Shown here piece by piece: positions 15,001 to 21,000 of a stretch of DNA of 64,000 nucleotides. The stretch is taken from assembly GCA_963713855.1 (NCBI GenBank), contig OY970209.1, positions 864,001 through 928,000 on the forward strand, written 5' to 3'. Numbering within the stretch: position 1 is the first letter of the stretch; the number at the start of each line of letters is the position of its first letter. This DNA is from an uncultured bacterium. GTDB taxonomy: Bacteria > Babelota > Babeliae > Babelales > Babelaceae. The position numbers were made by a program.

Positions 15001-18000
15001 CGTATCATCCGCTATGATACGTCCACATTGCATCATAAGCACCCTGTCGCAGACATCGGTAACCTCAGACATATTATGAGAAGTAAAAAGGACGGAAAGA
15101 CCAGTTCTTTCTCGCTCTTTCAAAATAAATGATCGAACCTCATTTGCAACTTCAGGGTCAAGCGATGCGGTTGGCTCGTCAAGTAGGATCAGGCGAGGAT
15201 TTGGCAAGAATGCTTTGACGAGAATAACGCGTGTCATTTGTCCAGCTGACAAGGTTCCTGTTCGTCTTTCAGAAAAGGAATCCATATGAAAAAGTGAAAG
15301 CAGGCTTTTTATGCGTTCATGCCTTTCTTTTACGGGCATGTTGTAGAGCCTGCCATAAATATCTAAATTATCCCAGACGCTCAAATTGGCGGGTAGTTTG
15401 TCATAGCCGCTTGCATGTGTTACAAAACTGAGAGCTTGAGGGCCTTTTTTGAGAAAATCTTGCCCGAAGTACGTGATGTTCCCTTTGCTTGGAGTAAGCG
15501 TGCCTGTAAGCATTTGAATAGTTGTTGTCTTTCCCGCACCGTTAACGCCAAGAAGACCAACAATTTCTCCCTTTTTAATTTGGCACGAGAGATTGTCGAC
15601 TGCCGTAAAGGTATTTTTAGTACCAAAAAAGCCTTTTCGCGTAGTAAATGTTTTAGTCAGGTTTTCTATGTCAAGTGGGATCATTTAAAGAGTGTTTCCT
15701 GGCAATGAAAGTTTTCATGCTAGTATACACTATTGTTCTGCGTTGGCCTAGTAAGAGCAAAGGAGCTTTAAAGCTCCTTTATTAAGTATTGTAACCTTTA
15801 CCAGTCGTTACGCTTCCAGGTCCCCAACCTATTCCTCCTGAAGTACTTACGCTACCAAACTCGTTTTCGTCATGCGTAAACATAGGGGTTGAAGGTGTGC
15901 TCATAGCACTTAAATCTTGACTCGGAGGTAGAGCCGGACCAGGACCGCCTTCAAAACCCTGCTCGGGGACTCGCGGTACTGCCTGTGGTGGTGGGGTTGG
16001 TGGAGTACTTCTTGTTATAATAGTACTTCCATCAGAACTTGTAGAAGCGGGGCTTACGGTAGCGCTGCTGTCATCGTCCATACCCATATCGCCTTCGTCC
16101 ATGTCTTGCCCATTCATGTCGCCGTCCATAGAATTTTCATCAGGTGAAGGTGCCATTTGCATAGAACCGCCCTCGTCAGTAACTTGCTGAGAAGTGGGTA
16201 CTTCCGGTTGATTTGTTGGACCCTGCTGATTGACTTGCATCGTTCCCGTTTGCGCAAGCAAGAAAGGAGACATTAAAGCACTTACTAACAATGTAAGAGA
16301 TAGATATTTTTTCGTCATGTCTTTCTCCTTATTTCATCATTTTCTAATATGCATACCCTATCATATAGAGTATATAAAATTTTATAATTGAAACTCAATA
16401 ATTGGAAAGACAGTTTCTAGGATGAAAGAAGACAAGCGAAAACATAAGATCTTACGTTTTCGCTTGGTTTTTTGATTTGAATATGTTTTGCCTTTACTAG
16501 AGGCTTCTCAATAACCGCCGTGGAGAGCCAGCGCCGCCAGGAAGTGGGCAGTCCGGTCCTGCAATACCAGCATTAACCCCCGGTCGCGTTACTCTGTCTA
16601 TAGGACAGCGTTGACCCGCCAAAAGGTTAGGGCTTATACCACTAAGCGAAAACGCAGCTACAAGAAGCATCGTCGCAGCAAAAAGCATGTATTTCATAAT
16701 CAGTACTCTTTTTTTATAGTTAAGGATCTTAAATCACGTTCCCAATGATTCCGCCGACATCTTCAACCGCCCTACCTGCGTCACTGACTGTTCCGCCTAC
16801 AACGCCCGGAGTGTAATAGTCATAAAGAGACTCGTCATCATAGGTATCGTAAGGTTGAGCATTAAGGCCAACAACTGACCCAAACAAAGAAAGAGCGAAG
16901 AACGCATAGTTTAACAGCTTCATAATTCCTCCTTTTAACATAACCTAAACCGTTGGCAAAATAGCTAAAGGCCAGACTCTCGTTTTTCAATGATACTCTA
17001 TATACTATTATTAACATAAAAATATGTATATCTGCAATATTTGATCCAATGAAGGCGGTCATGAAGAGTAGAAAATTTTGTTAGAACGCTATTGGGGAAA
17101 GGAAAGTGGGCGGTTAGATACGAAGTATGCTCTTCACATAGCTATTTTTCGGGCACTAAAGGTCATTCCGCCTGTGCCTTCGCTCATTGTCGGTCGTATT
17201 ATACCGCGCAATCCGCCATAGGGAGCGTCAGTGGTATAGTTATGTTGTATTACCGGCCAGTAAGGTAGCTTGTAGCCTCTTTTTTTCCGTAAGCAGCGGC
17301 GAGCGTGGGCATCTGAAGCGATACTTAGAGCAAAAAGCCATACGAGCGCTGCAAAAAACGTGTATCTCTTTTTCATGCTTTTTGCTCCTTAGTTTTTGCT
17401 GAGGCCGTTTTTGTAAATGTTTGCAACAATTGATTTGCTTGATTGAAGGCGCTTTGTGCATTTTGCGCTTCTTTTTTAGCATCGTTTGCTCTTTTTTCAG
17501 CCATTTGAGCAAAATAGTTAGCTCTTTCTGCAGCATCACGTGCCTTATTAACTTTTAACGTCAATTCTTCTTTCAAATAGTCAGTTGCTTGGTCGACCTG
17601 TGCATAGACCATGAAAGGTGTCATCGCCGTGACTAGTGCACTTTTGTAGAGCATTTTTTTTAAAGATAGTACGTTCATCAAAACCCCCCTTGTTTTGTAG
17701 ACGCTAGGAAATAAAATTCTCCTATAGAAAATTTCTATGCTTACGTTACCAAAAGTTTATCAACATTTGCAATACTTATATCTGCGATGGTTAAAAGGCT
17801 GCAATTTTGTGGAACTTTGGTATAGTTAAAACCTACAGACACGACATGTTCTCTCTTAAAAGGGCATCTATGCAAGTTCGCATTTCGCCGGAGATTTTAG
17901 CAAAGTATCCTAATCTCCTTATTGGTATTGTAGCAGCTTATGGGAGCAAGAATCAGGCTTCTTCGCAAGATATAAGCAAGATGGTACGGGGACAAGAGCA

Positions 18001-21000
18001 AGCTCTTGCATCCGCTATTGTGGCAGATCAGCTTGGTGAGCATCCACATATAAAAACGTGGCGTCAAGTGTATAAAAGTTTTGGTGCTCGCTATCAAGAA
18101 CATCCTTCTTCTGTTGAACGGCTTGCTTTACGAGTGCTTAAGGAACATCACATACCTTCCATAAATGCTTTTGTTGACCTCTATAATTACATCTCGCTTA
18201 AGTATCTTTTGCCCATCGGTGGCCAAGACATTGATGCTCTTAAGGGAGATATGGTGCTTTCGTGCGCTCAAGCAGGTGAAAAGCCTGTTACTGTATTAGG
18301 CAGCCAATCACTACAAGCTCCTTTAGAGGGTGAAGTGATCTATAAAGATGAGGAGGGCGCTGTTTGTAGGCGGTGGAACTGGAAAGATGTGCAGCGTGTT
18401 CAGCTTACACTTGCCACCCATAATGCACTTTTTTTGGTCGAAGGCGTCGGCGACATTGATCATGCTATTGTTAGATCAGCAACACATGAGCTTGCGGATC
18501 TAATAAAACGCTTTGGTGGAGGGACCGTTACTGTTGATTTTTTGAGTAAAGAGCAGCCCGAAATTACGCTTAAAAAAGGCGGTGCGTTTGTTGGTCTTAA
18601 AGCTCTAGAGCCTTATGGACTACAATTTTCTGTGTATCATCAGAATCTTATGACTCATGCTGAGTCCCTGTCTTCCGAACATTTAGCACGTGTTTCAAAA
18701 GTGGAAGCGCTTTTAAAAAAGGGTATTGACCCGTGGCCGCCTTCAAAACCAGTGAGTGCTACGTGTCACACCGTTATTGAAGAATACGAAGCTACAAATG
18801 AGACCCAAAACTATACTGTTGCTGGCAGAGTGATGGCAATACGCTTACACGGTAAAGCTGCATTTGTGCATATAAAAGACCGAACGGGAAAGCTCCAACT
18901 CTACCTTAAGCAAGATACCTTAGCTGAGACATTTTCTTTCTTTAAAGAGTACATTGACATAGGCGATATCATCTGGTGTTCTGGTTTTTCTTTTCGTACC
19001 AAAACGGGCGAAGTAACGCTTGATGTTCAAGAACTTGTTCTTGCCGCAAAGAGCCTCTATCCTTTGCCTGAAAAATTTCACGGTATTGCCGACATTGAGA
19101 TTAAGTATCGGCAGCGTTATTTGGATCTTATTACAAGTCCTCAAACAAGAGATCGTTTTATAAAAAGAAGTCATATCATACAAAAGATACGTGAGTATTT
19201 AAATAATCATGACTTTCTTGAAGTAGAAACGCCAATGCTTCATCCTCTGGCTGGTGGAGCTGCAGCGCGTCCTTTCGTTACGCATCATAATGCTCTTAAT
19301 TCAGATTTTTATTTAAGAATTGCTCCAGAGCTTTATCTAAAGCGGTTAGTTATAGGTGGTATTGAGCGTGTTTATGAGATTAATAGAAATTTTAGAAATG
19401 AGGGTGTTTCGACAAAGCATAATCCTGAGTTTACGATGCTCGAGTTTTATATGGCATATGAGGAGTATCACTTCATTATGGGCTTTGTTGAAGATCTACT
19501 TCGTCTTCTAGCACGTGAGGTGTGTGGGTCTTTAGAAGTGCCATTTGGTGAGTATACACTTAATTTCGCAGAGCCTTTTTTACGTATGACGATGCGTGAG
19601 GCGCTTATTACCTATGGCAATATGCACGACGAAGACTTGAATACATCTTTAATTGGTAAAACACTCGAAAGATTTAGTATTAAGCATATTCACCCACAAG
19701 CTTCTCACGGTGAGAAAATTTATGCTCTTTTTGAAGCGTGTGCAGAGTCAAAGCTCATACAACCTACATTTATCATCGATTTTCCTGTTGAAGTATCTCC
19801 GCTTTCTAAAAGGGACCCTCAAAACCCGTCTATTGCTGCTCGGTTTGAGCTTTTTATAGCTGGCATGGAGCTTAGTAACGGATTTAATGAGCTTAATGAT
19901 CCTTACGATCAGGCAGAGCGTTTTAAGCAGCAGCTTAAAGCAAGTGAGCGCGGGGATACTGAGGCCCATAACTATGACAAGGAATATATTCATGCTCTTG
20001 AATATGGACTTCCACCTACCGTAGGTGTGGGTATAGGTATCGATCGCTTAGTTATGCTTCTTACGAATACAACTTCTATTAAAGAGGTTATTCTCTTTCC
20101 GACGCTTAAGCGGAAAGAGTAGCGCATGGTTATCCAAGGGCAAAAGTATCGTTGGCAACTTCCTCAAACTAATCTACCGCTTATGCAGGATTTAGCTTCG
20201 CGCTTAAATGTGTGTTTTCCTGTCGTTCAAACATTGCTCACACGTGGCATGGAAAATGTCGCGGATATTGAGCGGTTTCTTTTTAGTCAGGAAGAGCGTG
20301 ATGTTGGCCATCCTTCGCTGCTTAAAGATGCTCTAAAAGCTGTTGACCGTATCATAGAAGCAATTGAGCGGCGCGAAAATATACTTATATGTGGCGACTA
20401 TGATGTTGATGGTATTACTTCTGCATCACTTTTACTCACCTGCCTTCTTCCTTTAGGAGCGCAGGTTAATTTTTTTCTTCCTAACCGTGTGCGTGATGGC
20501 TATGGCTTATCAGTAAAAACGGTAGAGCGAGCTGCTCGCAATGGGTATAAGGTGCTTATTACGGTTGATAATGGTATTACCGCATTTGATGCAGCCCGTG
20601 CAGCACAAATAGCCGGTATTGATCTAATCATTACAGATCATCACCATCCCCATGCAGAAATACCTGACGCATTTGCAATCGTTAACCCGCATCAAAAAAC
20701 ATGCCCCTATCCCTTTAAATATTTTGCGGGGGTCGGGGTTGGTTTTAAGCTCATGGCATACCTTTATGAAAAGCTTGGCTTAACATTGCCTAAAAAGGTG
20801 TATGAGCTTCTATTACTTGGTACTGTAGCAGACGTTGTTCCATTAAAGGATGAAAATAGGTTTTGGGTCCGTTACGGCCTTAATCAGATACACAAGGAAG
20901 AGAGTTTTGCCTTAAAAGTGCTCAAGAAAAATGGCCGCGTAACTAAAAGTGATCTTACGTCAACTGATATTGGTTTTTTCCTTACCCCTCAAATCAATGC

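What a model noticed while it worked through the whole genome (the two positions that open the first line are those of the whole stretch)
17870..20122. Lysyl-tRNA synthetase with an N-terminal CtdA-type aminoacyl-tRNA deacylase domain
The only LysRS (class II, g00820, 750 aa) carries a 260-residue N-terminal extension that is a close homolog of the free-standing canavanyl-tRNA(Arg) deacylase CtdA (B3/B4 fold). I read it as a cis-acting post-transfer editing domain that clears tRNA mischarged with a basic non-protein amino acid (canavanine, thialysine, ornithine or the like). LysRS is held to have no editing domain, so this would be the first, and the same domain is also fused to class I LysRS and to ArgRS in other lineages.
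Evidence so far: Pfam B3_4 64-215, tRNA_anti-codon 315-390, tRNA-synt_2 409-746; Swiss-Prot LysRS align only to 261-750. Residues 44-212 match solved CtdA 9f7e_A (E 4e-28) and 9mkl_A (E 1.7e-26); the residues that the CtdA paper names as key (N105, G116, C166 of S. enterica CtdA; PMC12449066, passages read, call 60) align to identical residues (DLYN, PIGG, GAVCRRWNW; numbering offset of 2 assumed). Database search with residues 1-270 among proteins of 412-1313 aa: 63 hits (this protein included): 41 with the class II LysRS core (PF00152), 14 with class I LysRS (PF01921), 6 with ArgRS (PF00750), 1 with TyrRS (PF00579), 1 cut short. In Babelaceae 6 of 41 genomes have the fused open frame of 750-790 aa and 3 a [...]
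(Added by a program. Inside this text positions count along the whole contig: contig position 864,001 is position 1 of the stretch shown here. "Call 12" and the like, gene names such as g00115 and contig names such as C1 are that model's own, and its searches are not shown. The text may have been shortened before it was handed on; [...] marks where a part breaks off. The agent that wrote the report below was given it as the finding of a first reader that could run no searches.)

Follow-up and report, generated by a model that had tools for sequence, protein, structure and literature searches.

The report
Lysine tRNA synthetase with built-in proofreading domain
This bacterium's only lysine-charging enzyme is made as one protein with a complete copy of a recently discovered tRNA 'eraser' (CtdA), which suggests an untested proofreading step that lysine enzymes are not known to have.

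Summary
Window 17870-20122 (+) is one 750-aa frame: a full CtdA-type B3/4 deacylase domain (1-245), a roughly 23-residue low-confidence linker, and a complete class II LysRS (269-750). It is the genome's only LysRS. The N-domain model superposes on solved CtdA (TM 0.83-0.89).

The fusion is not an artefact. About 22 of 261 genomes of the phylum carry it, and it interleaves with plain LysRS on the core tree, which points to repeated loss or gain.

Related domains are fused to both ends of class II LysRS, both ends of class I LysRS, ArgRS (the commonest partner) and TyrRS. The domain subfamilies follow the partner enzyme, not the fusion end.

My best reading (0.55) is a tethered post-transfer editing module for tRNALys mischarged with a basic non-cognate amino acid. 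The substrate is unknown.

Caveats:
- This copy has Gln at the position where E118Q abolished editing activity in P. canavaninivorans CtdA.
- The pocket residues barely differ from the ArgRS-fused forms.
- No biochemistry exists.

No paper I searched describes the fusion. One published supplement row lists a "LysRS class 2" among CtdA hits, without comment. This scan had already noted sister fusions on other DNA (class I LysRS, ArgRS, TyrRS, MetRS). I rate it a new variant of a known kind.

The parts
17870..20122 (+). Whole fused gene, 750 codons plus stop: CtdA-like deacylase domain, linker, class II lysyl-tRNA synthetase.
   Evidence: An in-frame TTG at 17807 is possible, but homologues start at the ATG (Met1 invariant).
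17870..18604 (+). N-terminal CtdA-type B3/4 aminoacyl-tRNA deacylase domain (residues 1-245).
   Evidence: PDB sequence hits 9f7e and 9mkl. AF2 model has pLDDT 96.2 and pTM 0.91. Foldseek best matches are 9mkl and 9f7e at TM 0.81-0.89, with the PheRS beta subunit only at TMq 0.52-0.60.
18182..18187 (+). Codons for Y105 and N106, equivalent to the catalytically required Y104 and N105 of CtdA.
   Evidence: Alignment; mutagenesis in PMC12268091 section 8 and PMC12449066 section 25. N is kept in 21 of 22 LysRS-II N-fused rows. Y is kept in all 35 class II rows printed.
18224..18226 (+). Codon for Q119, at the position of CtdA E118. This is an acidic residue at the pocket floor, and E118Q abolished CtdA activity.
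   Evidence: alignment. E in 17 of 22 LysRS-II N-fused rows and Q in 2 of 22. PMC12268091 section 8.
18269..18298 (+). Loop and strand at residues 134-143, which carries the signature of the LysRS-II-associated subfamily: no G135, P139 in place of F or G, and one extra residue at 141.
   Evidence: P139 is found in 22 of 26 LysRS-II rows, against F in 86 of 93 other free-standing rows. An insertion is absent in 92 of 93 of those rows.
18365..18388 (+). C166-R167-R168-W169-N170-W171-K172-D173. This covers the CtdA-1 hallmark Cys, basic tRNA-facing residues, and Asp at the position of CtdA Q173.
   Evidence: PMC12449066 sections 24 and 27.
18440..18442 (+). Codon for E191, the second required acidic residue of the CtdA pocket floor. 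It is conserved.
   Evidence: PMC12268091 section 8.
18605..18673 (+). Interdomain linker (residues 246-268), predicted flexible. It contains Met261 at about the point where plain LysRS of relatives begins.
   Evidence: The 10-residue pLDDT block means fall to 76 and 56 across residues 251-270, and residues 260-266 are below 50. N-fused homologues have 29-53 residues between domain position 233 and the LysRS helix. Met261 context.
18674..19048 (+). LysRS N-terminal helix and OB-fold anticodon-binding domain (residues 269-393).
   Evidence: Pfam tRNA_anti-codon 315-390; secondary structure.
19094..20107 (+). Class II catalytic domain (residues 409-746).
   Evidence: Pfam tRNA-synt_2 at E 3.8e-94. 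Foldseek gives 44-48% identity to the bacterial LysS/LysU structures at ranks 1-16.

Best explanation
The gene encodes the cell's housekeeping class II LysRS with an appended aminoacyl-tRNA deacylase of the CtdA branch of the B3/4 fold.

Proposed mechanism:
- The LysRS core charges tRNALys normally.
- The N-terminal domain is held on a flexible tether of roughly 23 residues (model residues 246-268).
- It captures the 3' end of tRNA through its basic rim (R74, R88, K91, R167, R168, K172).
- It admits a long cationic side chain into a pocket with acidic residues at the bottom (E191 and D173 here; E119, E173 and E191 in most relatives).
- It hydrolyses the ester bond using the Y105/N106 pair.
- The result would be removal of a non-cognate basic amino acid that LysRS has put on tRNALys, while Lys-tRNALys is spared.

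Candidate substrates, none of them tested:
- (a) Arg, canavanine or homoarginine on tRNALys. E. coli LysRS is reported to make Arg-tRNALys and not to deacylate it.
- (b) Heteroatom lysine analogues of the thialysine or oxalysine type, or ornithine.

What is shown: the architecture, the fold, the conservation, and the recurrent fusion that follows the partner enzyme. What is inferred: catalysis, the substrate, and action on tRNALys. Whether the tRNA end moves directly from the synthetic site (true cis editing) or is recaptured after release (tethered trans editing) is open. The existence of both N- and C-terminal fusions favours a loosely tethered module.
For: (1) The domain is complete.
- The AF2 model has pLDDT 96.2.
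- It matches CtdA structures 9mkl and 9f7e at TM 0.81-0.89 over 225-233 columns.
- The sequence E-value is 4e-28.

(2) Functional residues.
- Kept here: Y105, N106, S109, G117, G118, C166, R167, R168, W169 and E191 (alignment).
- Across the 22 class II N-fused rows, which are about 40-50% identical, most are kept: N106 in 21 of 22, G117 in 20, C166 in 19, W169 in 22.
- Six of the nine basic rim residues named in PMC12268091 section 8 are basic here.

(3) The enzyme is essential.
- It is the only LysRS of this genome.
- The same holds for each of the 6 fused genomes of the family.

(4) Fusion to LysRS is recurrent.
- Among the 36 hits, sorted: 19 N-terminal and 3 C-terminal on class II LysRS, and 10 N-terminal and 1 C-terminal on the unrelated class I LysRS.

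(5) The subfamilies follow the partner enzyme (careful tree of 110 rows; values are ultrafast bootstrap/SH-aLRT).
- All 13 class I LysRS-fused domains, N- and C-terminal, form one split (95/80).
- Of the class II-fused domains, 26 of 27 fall in one 37-row split together with 11 free-standing proteins (92/95).
- Two N-fused domains group with three C-fused ones (99/86).

(6) Signature residues depend on the partner.
- Class II LysRS: N84, no G135, P139, +1 residue at 141, L142, A/T164, C216.
- Main ArgRS clade: G139, Y142, F164.
- Class I LysRS: D119, Y189.
- TyrRS: H119, T166, P189, D191.
- Residue 164 lies two residues before C166 on the same strand (E163-167), so it should face the same side. 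That is inference.

(7) There is a biochemical gap to fill. LysRS mischarges tRNALys with Arg and other amino acids and does not deacylate Arg-tRNALys (PMC5370406 section 2.2.3, passage read). CtdA accommodates Arg and hydrolyses Arg-tRNA weakly (PMC12449066 sections 26-27).
Against: - No activity has been measured for any fused form.
- This protein has Gln at E118, and E118Q abolished Can-tRNA editing in P. canavaninivorans CtdA (PMC12268091 section 8). It also departs from its clade consensus at R84, L87, D173, Q178, L189 and G216. This copy could therefore be weakened or altered. One counter-point: it keeps two acidic pocket residues (D173, E191), the same number as canonical CtdA (E118, E191, with Q173 neutral).
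- At the residues the papers name, the class II LysRS-fused domains are almost identical to the ArgRS-fused ones (E, C, R, R, W, N, W, E, V). A canavanine or arginine-type pocket is therefore as likely as a lysine-analogue pocket.
- I could not map the subfamily loop (134-143) onto the pocket, because no coordinates are given by the tools.
- The domain is dispensable in evolution. Fused and plain LysRS interleave on the core tree: 10 changes, at least 5 of them forced by well-supported branches.
- No column of the LysRS core separates fused from plain enzymes; the lowest overlap is 0.25. There is therefore no sign that the fused cores are more error-prone.
- The interdomain geometry is not predicted with confidence (pTM 0.51).
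Confidence: 0.55

Rival explanations
1. The domain is an ordinary canavanyl-tRNAArg deacylase acting in trans on tRNAArg. LysRS is only a carrier, for example for co-expression or stability.
For: - The named pocket residues match those of the ArgRS-fused and free CtdA-like proteins.
- CtdA is known to work as a free-standing trans factor (PMC10018355 abstract; PMC12449066).
- This genome has no other CtdA-like gene.
- ArgRS is the commonest fusion partner: 21 of the 38 long proteins among the best 150 representatives.
Against: - A passive carrier would not be expected to be chosen repeatedly among two unrelated LysRS classes and at both termini.
- A passive carrier would also not explain a partner-specific subfamily with its own loop signature, which is shared by N- and C-fused forms and by 11-13 free relatives.
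- E118 is Gln in this copy, a change that abolished Can-tRNA editing in CtdA (PMC12268091 section 8).
Confidence: 0.15
2. The domain is catalytically dead or weakened here and serves as a tRNA-binding appendage that raises the affinity of LysRS for tRNALys, as N-terminal extensions do in some other synthetases. It could also be decaying on the way to loss.
For: - Q119 sits at the E118 position (PMC12268091 section 8).
- Several departures from the clade consensus and a comparatively long end branch (0.56-0.59).
- The basic rim is largely retained.
- The domain has been lost repeatedly in relatives.
Against: - Y105, N106, C166 and E191 are intact.
- There is no stop or frameshift.
- The model is confident throughout (pLDDT 96).
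- Q at this position recurs in two other lineages that otherwise keep the pocket (P0013 and G021).
- D173 supplies an acidic group nearby in sequence.
Confidence: 0.15
3. The domain hydrolyses something other than a mischarged tRNA. Examples are correctly charged Lys-tRNALys as a regulatory brake, or an aminoacyl ester or adenylate by-product.
For: - Nothing direct.
- CtdA-like domains are also fused to a GNAT acetyltransferase (P0058) and to an amidase fragment (P0088). The fold is therefore used in small-molecule contexts too.
Against: - All characterised members of the fold (the PheRS B3/4 domain and CtdA) act on aminoacyl-tRNA (PMC12449066 sections 24-26).
- Hydrolysing the cognate product of the only LysRS would be a futile cycle.
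Confidence: 0.07

Closest known systems
CtdA, canavanyl-tRNAArg deacylase (CtdA-1 clade; PDB 9f7e from P. canavaninivorans and 9mkl from S. enterica)
   Same: - Same fold, including the CtdA-specific helical insert (TM 0.81-0.89).
- Same Y-N catalytic pair, GG motif, CRRWNW strand with the hallmark Cys, and E191.
- Largely the same basic rim.
   Different: - It is not free-standing. It is fused to LysRS.
- E118 is Gln, Q173 is Asp, W158 is Tyr, and W187 and I189 are Leu.
- The loop at 134-143 is remodelled: the G134...F138 motif is lost.
- Identity is only 25-28% in the structural alignment.
- The substrate is unknown.
B3/B4 editing domain of the bacterial PheRS beta subunit
   Same: An integral, cis-acting post-transfer editing domain of the same fold inside a class II synthetase. 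The Asn that positions the water is shared.
   Different: - Much more distant (TMq 0.52-0.60 and 11-16% identity among the bacterial PheRS beta chains).
- Different inserts and pocket.
- It is embedded in a multidomain subunit, not tethered at a terminus.
- It edits Tyr or m-Tyr on tRNAPhe.
Canonical bacterial class II LysRS (LysS/LysU; e.g. 1bbu, 1lyl, 6wbd)
   Same: - Residues 269-750 are a complete LysRS.
- TIGR00499 scores 606 bits.
- 44-48% identity to the bacterial structures at ranks 1-16.
   Different: - Canonical LysRS has no separate editing domain.
- It is described as editing only before transfer, in the synthetic site: Hcy, Hse and Orn by cyclisation (PMC7373986 section 18 and PMC5370406, passages read).
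Free trans-editing factors that also occur as synthetase domains (AlaX/AlaRS, ProXp and YbaK/ProRS INS, ThrRS-ed)
   Same: The same evolutionary logic. One deacylase fold exists both free-standing and fused, with specificity varying by subfamily (PMC12449066 discussion; PMC7373986 section 20).
   Different: Unrelated folds. None of them is reported on LysRS.

Membership tests
Class II lysyl-tRNA synthetase (lysS) | Full-length match to the curated equivalog model above its cut-off | tested here: met
   TIGR00499 scores 606.1 bits against a cut-off of 427.6, over residues 269-748. NF001756 scores 653.2 against 468.
Class II lysyl-tRNA synthetase (lysS) | OB-fold anticodon-binding domain followed by a class II (D/K/N) catalytic domain | tested here: met
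   Pfam matches at 315-390 and 409-746. Foldseek top hits are LysRS structures with bound lysine.
Class II lysyl-tRNA synthetase (lysS) | Serves as the cell's LysRS (no other copy) | tested here: met
   The genome is a single contig, 91% complete by marker genes.
Class II lysyl-tRNA synthetase (lysS) | Lysylation of tRNALys | not testable with these tools
   Needs an enzyme assay.
CtdA family (CtdA-1 clade) of aminoacyl-tRNA deacylases | B3/B4 fold with the CtdA-specific long helical insert | tested here: met
   Model helices at 33-49, 52-57, 59-70 and 81-92. TM 0.83/0.89 to 9mkl_A over 225 columns.
CtdA family (CtdA-1 clade) of aminoacyl-tRNA deacylases | Residues required for activity: Y104, N105, E118, E191 (PMC12268091); N105, G116, Q173 (PMC12449066) | tested here: inconclusive
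   Y, N, G and E191 are present. E118 is Gln and Q173 is Asp. Most clade members have E at both positions.
CtdA family (CtdA-1 clade) of aminoacyl-tRNA deacylases | Conserved Cys166, the CtdA-1 hallmark that is absent or different in CtdA-2 | tested here: met
   C166 is present here and in 19 of 22 class II N-fused rows.
CtdA family (CtdA-1 clade) of aminoacyl-tRNA deacylases | Stand-alone protein of about 230 aa | tested here: not met
   Fused in frame to LysRS. Free-standing relatives do exist in the same bacterial family.
CtdA family (CtdA-1 clade) of aminoacyl-tRNA deacylases | Hydrolysis of canavanyl-tRNAArg with Arg-tRNAArg spared | not testable with these tools
   Needs deacylation assays.

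The most novel reading that the evidence does not exclude
CtdA-like B3/4 domains may be a modular proofreading unit that synthetases long regarded as lacking an editing domain have recruited independently. Those synthetases are class I LysRS, class II LysRS, ArgRS and TyrRS, plus MetRS according to earlier notes of this scan.

The pocket would be re-tuned for each partner, and recruitment would be mainly in small-genome, host-dependent microbes that live on scavenged amino-acid pools.

On this reading, the class II LysRS form found here is the first post-transfer editing activity for tRNALys. It would clear a basic mischarged amino acid (Arg or canavanine type, or thialysine type) that ordinary LysRS cannot remove.
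Probability: 0.45. Interest if true: 0.8.

Novelty: new variant of a known kind. Interest (0 to 1): 0.7.

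Why it matters
LysRS, ArgRS and TyrRS are treated as synthetases without a post-transfer editing domain. 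E. coli LysRS is reported to leave Arg-tRNALys and other mischarged species uncorrected.

A natural LysRS with a built-in deacylase would show that lysine decoding can need proofreading and can acquire it. It would also give a direct handle on which non-protein or non-cognate basic amino acids threaten translation in intracellular, amino-acid-scavenging bacteria. It would widen the CtdA family from a canavanine-specific curiosity to a general, portable editing module.

In practice the fused and plain LysRS of close relatives form a natural with-and-without series for experiments. The partner-specific pocket signatures also give testable determinants of specificity.

Tried and rejected
- **Complex prediction of the N-domain (1-245) against the LysRS core (262-750).** The tool gave no answer (run scores 0.02, 0.34, 0.00 against a mark of 0.32). 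I do not use it for or against docking.
- **Full-length AF2 model.** Both halves are confident, but pTM is 0.51, so no interdomain geometry can be read from it. Foldseek on that model returned only LysRS chains.
- **Mapping the subfamily loop 134-143 onto the pocket.** This was not possible. The tools return no coordinates, and neither CtdA paper mentions these residues (one search failed on term length).
- **Looking for LysRS core changes that accompany the fusion.** There are none. The lowest fused-versus-plain overlap is 0.25, at variable positions.
- **Gene neighbourhood of a free-standing close relative (L047, in a 938-kb MAG labelled Gammaproteobacteria).** The neighbours are an inositol-monophosphatase-like gene and a PAS histidine kinase, not lysS. 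The single genome-contig scan returned only this one locus, so it gave no named organisms with the fusion.
- **ESM Atlas look-up.** Only generic B3/4 clusters.
- **Internal start at Met261.** No recognisable ribosome-binding site, but the true start has none either, so this says nothing either way.
- **Assembly artefact or frameshift as the origin of the fusion.** Rejected. The genome is a single contig, and 21 further genomes of the phylum have the same open frame.
- **Literature search with 'PF03483', 'B3_4' and 'B3 4 domain'.** Returned noise only.
- **dN/dS.** Not attempted, because the domains are only 40-50% identical and synonymous sites would be saturated.

Full report
**1. Observation**

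- A stop-to-stop frame runs from 17807 to 20122 on the + strand.
- From the ATG at 17870 it encodes 750 residues.
- The Met is an invariant first column in the alignment of 22 fused homologues, so I take 17870 as the start.

Domain and family matches:
- Pfam gives B3_4 at 64-215, the OB anticodon-binding domain at 315-390 and the class II D/K/N catalytic domain at 409-746.
- The curated LysRS equivalog TIGR00499 matches 269-748 at 606 bits against a cut-off of 427.6.
- Against all PDB sequences, residues 1-270 hit only two entries at E<=0.01, and both are CtdA: 9f7e_A at 4e-28 and 9mkl_A at 1.7e-26.

The gene is the only LysRS of a single-contig 1.52-Mb genome.
- One of 3 TIGR00499 matches passes the cut-off, and it is this gene.
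- The class I LysRS family gives only partial matches of 21-32 bits inside other frames.
- The only other B3_4 match is a 772-aa frame, presumably pheT, which I did not check further.
- Downstream, 3 and 5 bases apart, follow recJ (DHH/DHHA1/RecJ_OB) and cmk.
- Upstream are small unassigned ORFs on the other strand.
- The only tRNA gene in the 64-kb window is a tRNA-Ser at 56623-56714.

**2. Anatomy**

I made two AF2 models.
- In the full-length model both halves are confident (mean pLDDT 87.5). The 10-residue block means fall to 76 and 56 across residues 251-270, and residues 260-266 are below 50. pTM is only 0.51, so the relative position of the halves is not predicted.
- The N-domain alone (1-245, with a 98-row alignment) gives pLDDT 96.2 and pTM 0.91.
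- The N-domain model's best structural matches are CtdA: 9mkl_A at TM 0.83/0.89 and rmsd 2.5 over 225 columns, and 9f7e_A at 0.82/0.87.
- The bacterial PheRS beta chains follow at TMq 0.52-0.60.
- The domain is therefore a whole CtdA, including the helical insert that distinguishes CtdA from the PheRS editing domain (PMC12449066 section 24; PMC12268091 abstract and section 8).
- Residues 269-750 are an ordinary LysRS, 44-48% identical to the bacterial LysS/LysU structures at ranks 1-16.

**3. Functional residues**

I counted along the alignments. 9f7e numbering equals the paper's numbering; 9mkl chain numbering is the paper's plus 2.

| CtdA residue | Role (from the papers) | Here |
|---|---|---|
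| Y104, N105 | required catalytic pair | Y105, N106 |
| S108 | near the ester bond | S109 |
| G116, G117 | pocket and possible oxyanion hole | G117, G118 |
| C166 | CtdA-1 hallmark, modulates specificity | C166 |
| R167, R168, W169 | basic rim and pocket wall | unchanged |
| E191 | required pocket-floor acid | E191 |
| E118 | required pocket-floor acid | Q119 |
| Q173 | pocket, faces the side chain | D173 |
| W158 | pocket wall | Y158 |
| W187, I189 | pocket wall | L187, L189 |

- Six of the nine basic rim residues are basic here: R74, R88, K91, R167, R168 and K172.
- E118Q abolished Can-tRNA editing in P. canavaninivorans CtdA (PMC12268091 section 8). This is the main point against activity of this particular copy.
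- Most relatives have Glu at both positions. E119 is found in 17 of 22 and E173 in 16 of 22 class II N-fused rows.
- Gln recurs in two other lineages, P0013 and G021.
- This copy keeps two acidic pocket residues (D173, E191), the same number as canonical CtdA.
- Whether that compensates for the Gln is inference.

**4. Distribution**

Within the family (41 genomes), 9 have the domain:
- 6 carry it as a fused frame of 752-787 aa.
- 2 carry a free-standing 233-aa gene away from lysS (G036 and G037).
- 1 carries a truncated 162-aa copy (G010).

Within the phylum (261 genomes), 28 have the domain:
- 21 have frames of at least 739 aa.
- 1 has a frame of 574 aa.
- 6 have short frames.
- They are spread over 6 of the 21 family codes listed.

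Every one of the 6 fused genomes of the family has exactly one LysRS match, the fused one.

Trees:
- On a tree of LysRS cores (54 rows, quick IQ-TREE), fused and plain enzymes interleave. There are 10 changes of label, and at least 5 are forced by branches with SH-aLRT of 95 or more.
- The N-domains of the main group form one clade of 19. Support is SH-aLRT 99 in the quick 188-row tree and 90/89 in the careful 110-row tree, whose bootstrap had not fully settled.
- The simplest reading is one old fusion in this phylum followed by repeated loss of the domain, with some exchange.
- The root and the direction of change are not established.
- No alignment column of the core separates fused from plain enzymes.

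**5. The wider family**

A word-indexed search with residues 1-262 among proteins of 412-1313 aa gave 36 hits. Sorting them by where the domain lies gives:
- 19 N-terminal and 3 C-terminal fusions to class II LysRS;
- 10 N-terminal and 1 C-terminal fusion to class I LysRS;
- 3 N-terminal fusions to ArgRS.

An exhaustive HMMER search of 1.84 billion cluster representatives gave 2641 hits at E<=1e-3 and 143 at E<=1e-30. Of the best 150, 38 are longer than 300 aa. Their Pfam architectures are:

| Architecture | Count | Notes |
|---|---|---|
| ArgRS, N-terminal domain | 21 | one has two tandem domains |
| Class II LysRS, N-terminal domain | 4 | two are fragments |
| Class II LysRS, C-terminal domain | 2 | |
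| Class I LysRS, N-terminal domain | 1 | |
| Class I LysRS, C-terminal domain | 1 | |
| TyrRS, N-terminal domain | 3 | |
| GNAT acetyltransferase plus domain | 1 | |
| Domain plus amidase fragment | 1 | |
| Unassigned extension | 4 | three group with ArgRS-fused rows in the tree |

These rows are cluster representatives, not independent events.

In the careful tree (values are ultrafast bootstrap/SH-aLRT):
- All 13 class I LysRS-fused domains form one split (95/80), whichever end they sit on.
- Of the 27 class II-fused domains, 26 lie in one 37-row split with 11 free-standing proteins (92/95).
- Two N-fused domains group with three C-fused ones (99/86).
- One class II fusion (P0104) groups instead with the free-standing genes of this bacterial family (100/99).
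- The TyrRS-fused domains sit elsewhere, with free relatives (100/97).

Signature residues follow the partner:
- **Class II LysRS subfamily.** It has N84, no G135, P139, one extra residue at 141, L142, A/T164 and C216. Among 93 other free-standing rows, 86 have F139, 82 have G135 and 92 lack the insertion. The free-standing members of the subfamily share the signature.
- **Main ArgRS clade.** G139, Y142 and F164.
- **Class I LysRS set.** D119 and Y189.
- **TyrRS set.** H119, T166, P189 and D191, and it lacks the catalytic Tyr.

At the residues the papers name, however, the class II LysRS and ArgRS sets are nearly the same.

**6. Mechanism**

The fold family has one known chemistry: hydrolysis of the aminoacyl ester of a mischarged tRNA in a pocket between the B3 and B4 parts (PMC12449066 sections 24-27; PMC12268091 section 8).

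The argument runs as follows.
- The domain is conserved over long divergence and is attached to an essential enzyme.
- It has been joined again and again to two unrelated LysRS classes at either end.
- The attached subfamily follows the partner enzyme.
- This is the classic signature of a functional link between the fused parts.
- I therefore read it as a post-transfer editing module serving LysRS and tRNALys (confidence 0.55).
- Both ends are used, with linkers of 29-53 residues for N-fusions and 10-18 for C-fusions. That favours a tethered module over a rigid cis architecture.

The substrate is open.
- Acidic residues at the pocket floor point to a cationic side chain.
- A pocket built for a guanidino chain would naturally spare the shorter lysine. 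It would also fit the reported, uncorrected Arg-tRNALys made by E. coli LysRS (PMC5370406 section 2.2.3).
- Discrimination of a heteroatom analogue from the cognate amino acid is what CtdA already does for canavanine against arginine. That is the precedent for a thialysine or oxalysine type of substrate.

The rivals are:
- a trans-acting Can-tRNAArg deacylase merely carried by LysRS (0.15);
- a dead or tRNA-binding appendage in this copy (0.15);
- another hydrolytic role (0.07).

**7. What is known**

The three CtdA papers do not mention a fusion.
- PMC10018355: term search only.
- PMC12268091: term search, abstract and section 8 read.
- PMC12449066: outline and sections 24-30 read.
- They contain no occurrence of 'fused', 'fusion', 'LysRS' or 'lysyl' in the main text.
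- They describe CtdA as stand-alone.

Full-text searches found no description either.
- The searches were: 'B3 B4' + 'lysyl-tRNA synthetase' + 'editing domain' (0 papers); 'LysRS' / 'editing domain' / 'thialysine'; 'canavanine' + 'LysRS'; 'deacylase' + 'fused' + 'lysyl-tRNA synthetase' + 'editing'.
- For these searches I saw listings only, apart from the passages cited.
- The library holds open-access text only.

Other points:
- The review PMC7373986 (passages read) describes LysRS editing as pre-transfer in the synthetic site.
- Supplementary Table S2 of PMC12449066 lists one CtdA hit described as 'Lysyl-tRNA synthetase, class 2' (Alteribacillus persepolensis). It gives no length and no comment, so I could not tell whether that protein is fused.
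- Earlier notes of this scan record CtdA-like domains on class I LysRS, ArgRS, TyrRS and MetRS in other genomes. I confirmed the first three kinds independently and did not test MetRS.

**8. Verdict**

This copy carries a substitution that calls for caution.

This is a new variant of a known kind: a known deacylase family, a known logic of free and fused editing modules, and a host enzyme not known to carry one. I set interest at 0.7.

Noticed in passing
P0123, P0141, P0177: TyrRS proteins of 649-691 aa carry an N-terminal CtdA-like domain whose pocket is clearly different: H at E118, T at C166, P at I189, D at E191, and A or V in place of the catalytic Tyr. This suggests a different substrate from the Lys and Arg forms.
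   Followed up: partly
P0048: An ArgRS of 1124 aa carries two tandem CtdA-like domains (1-235 and 265-510) ahead of the ArgRS N-terminal domain.
   Followed up: no
P0058 and P0088: The CtdA-like domain is also fused to a GNAT acetyltransferase (424 aa, domain at the C-terminus) and to an amidase fragment (427 aa). Both group with CtdA-like or ArgRS-fused rows in the tree. They may be small-molecule detoxification partners.
   Followed up: no
L015 1507-2208 (-), L016 1495-2196 (+), L017 1546-2034 (+): Relatives in the same bacterial family have a free-standing 233-aa CtdA-like gene (G036, G037) or a truncated 162-aa copy (G010). None of these is next to lysS. They belong to a different subfamily from the fused domain and group with P0104.
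   Followed up: partly
G008:C8:22600-24046 and G006:C27:9302-9976: In one relative the LysRS match is split into two adjacent frames (237 and 281 aa). In another it contains 2 TAA stops. These may be broken genes or assembly errors in draft genomes.
   Followed up: no
G037: This draft genome (160 contigs, 4% contamination) has two LysRS matches. One scores 682 bits on a 2.5-kb contig and sits on a long branch outside the family's LysRS clade. It is probably foreign DNA in the bin.
   Followed up: no
window 20126-21841 and 21847-22539 (+): recJ (DHH, DHHA1, RecJ_OB) and cmk follow the fused lysS with gaps of 3 and 5 bases. They are probably one transcription unit.
   Followed up: partly
window 16729-17681 (-): Three small ORFs of 70-102 aa upstream on the opposite strand have hydrophobic N-termini and no Pfam match.
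   Followed up: no
P0056; L047: The only organism labels obtained for relatives are a Candidatus Shapirobacteria MAG (ArgRS fusion) and a 938-kb MAG labelled Gammaproteobacteria (free-standing close relative). Earlier scan notes speak of tiny-genome hosts. This hints at an association with reduced genomes, which I did not test.
   Followed up: no
PMC12449066 Supplementary Table S2, sheet 2, row 615: Among the organisms listed as having CtdA, one protein (Alteribacillus persepolensis, Firmicutes) is described as 'Lysyl-tRNA synthetase, class 2'. It may be a fused LysRS in a cultured bacterium. No length is given in the table.
   Followed up: no
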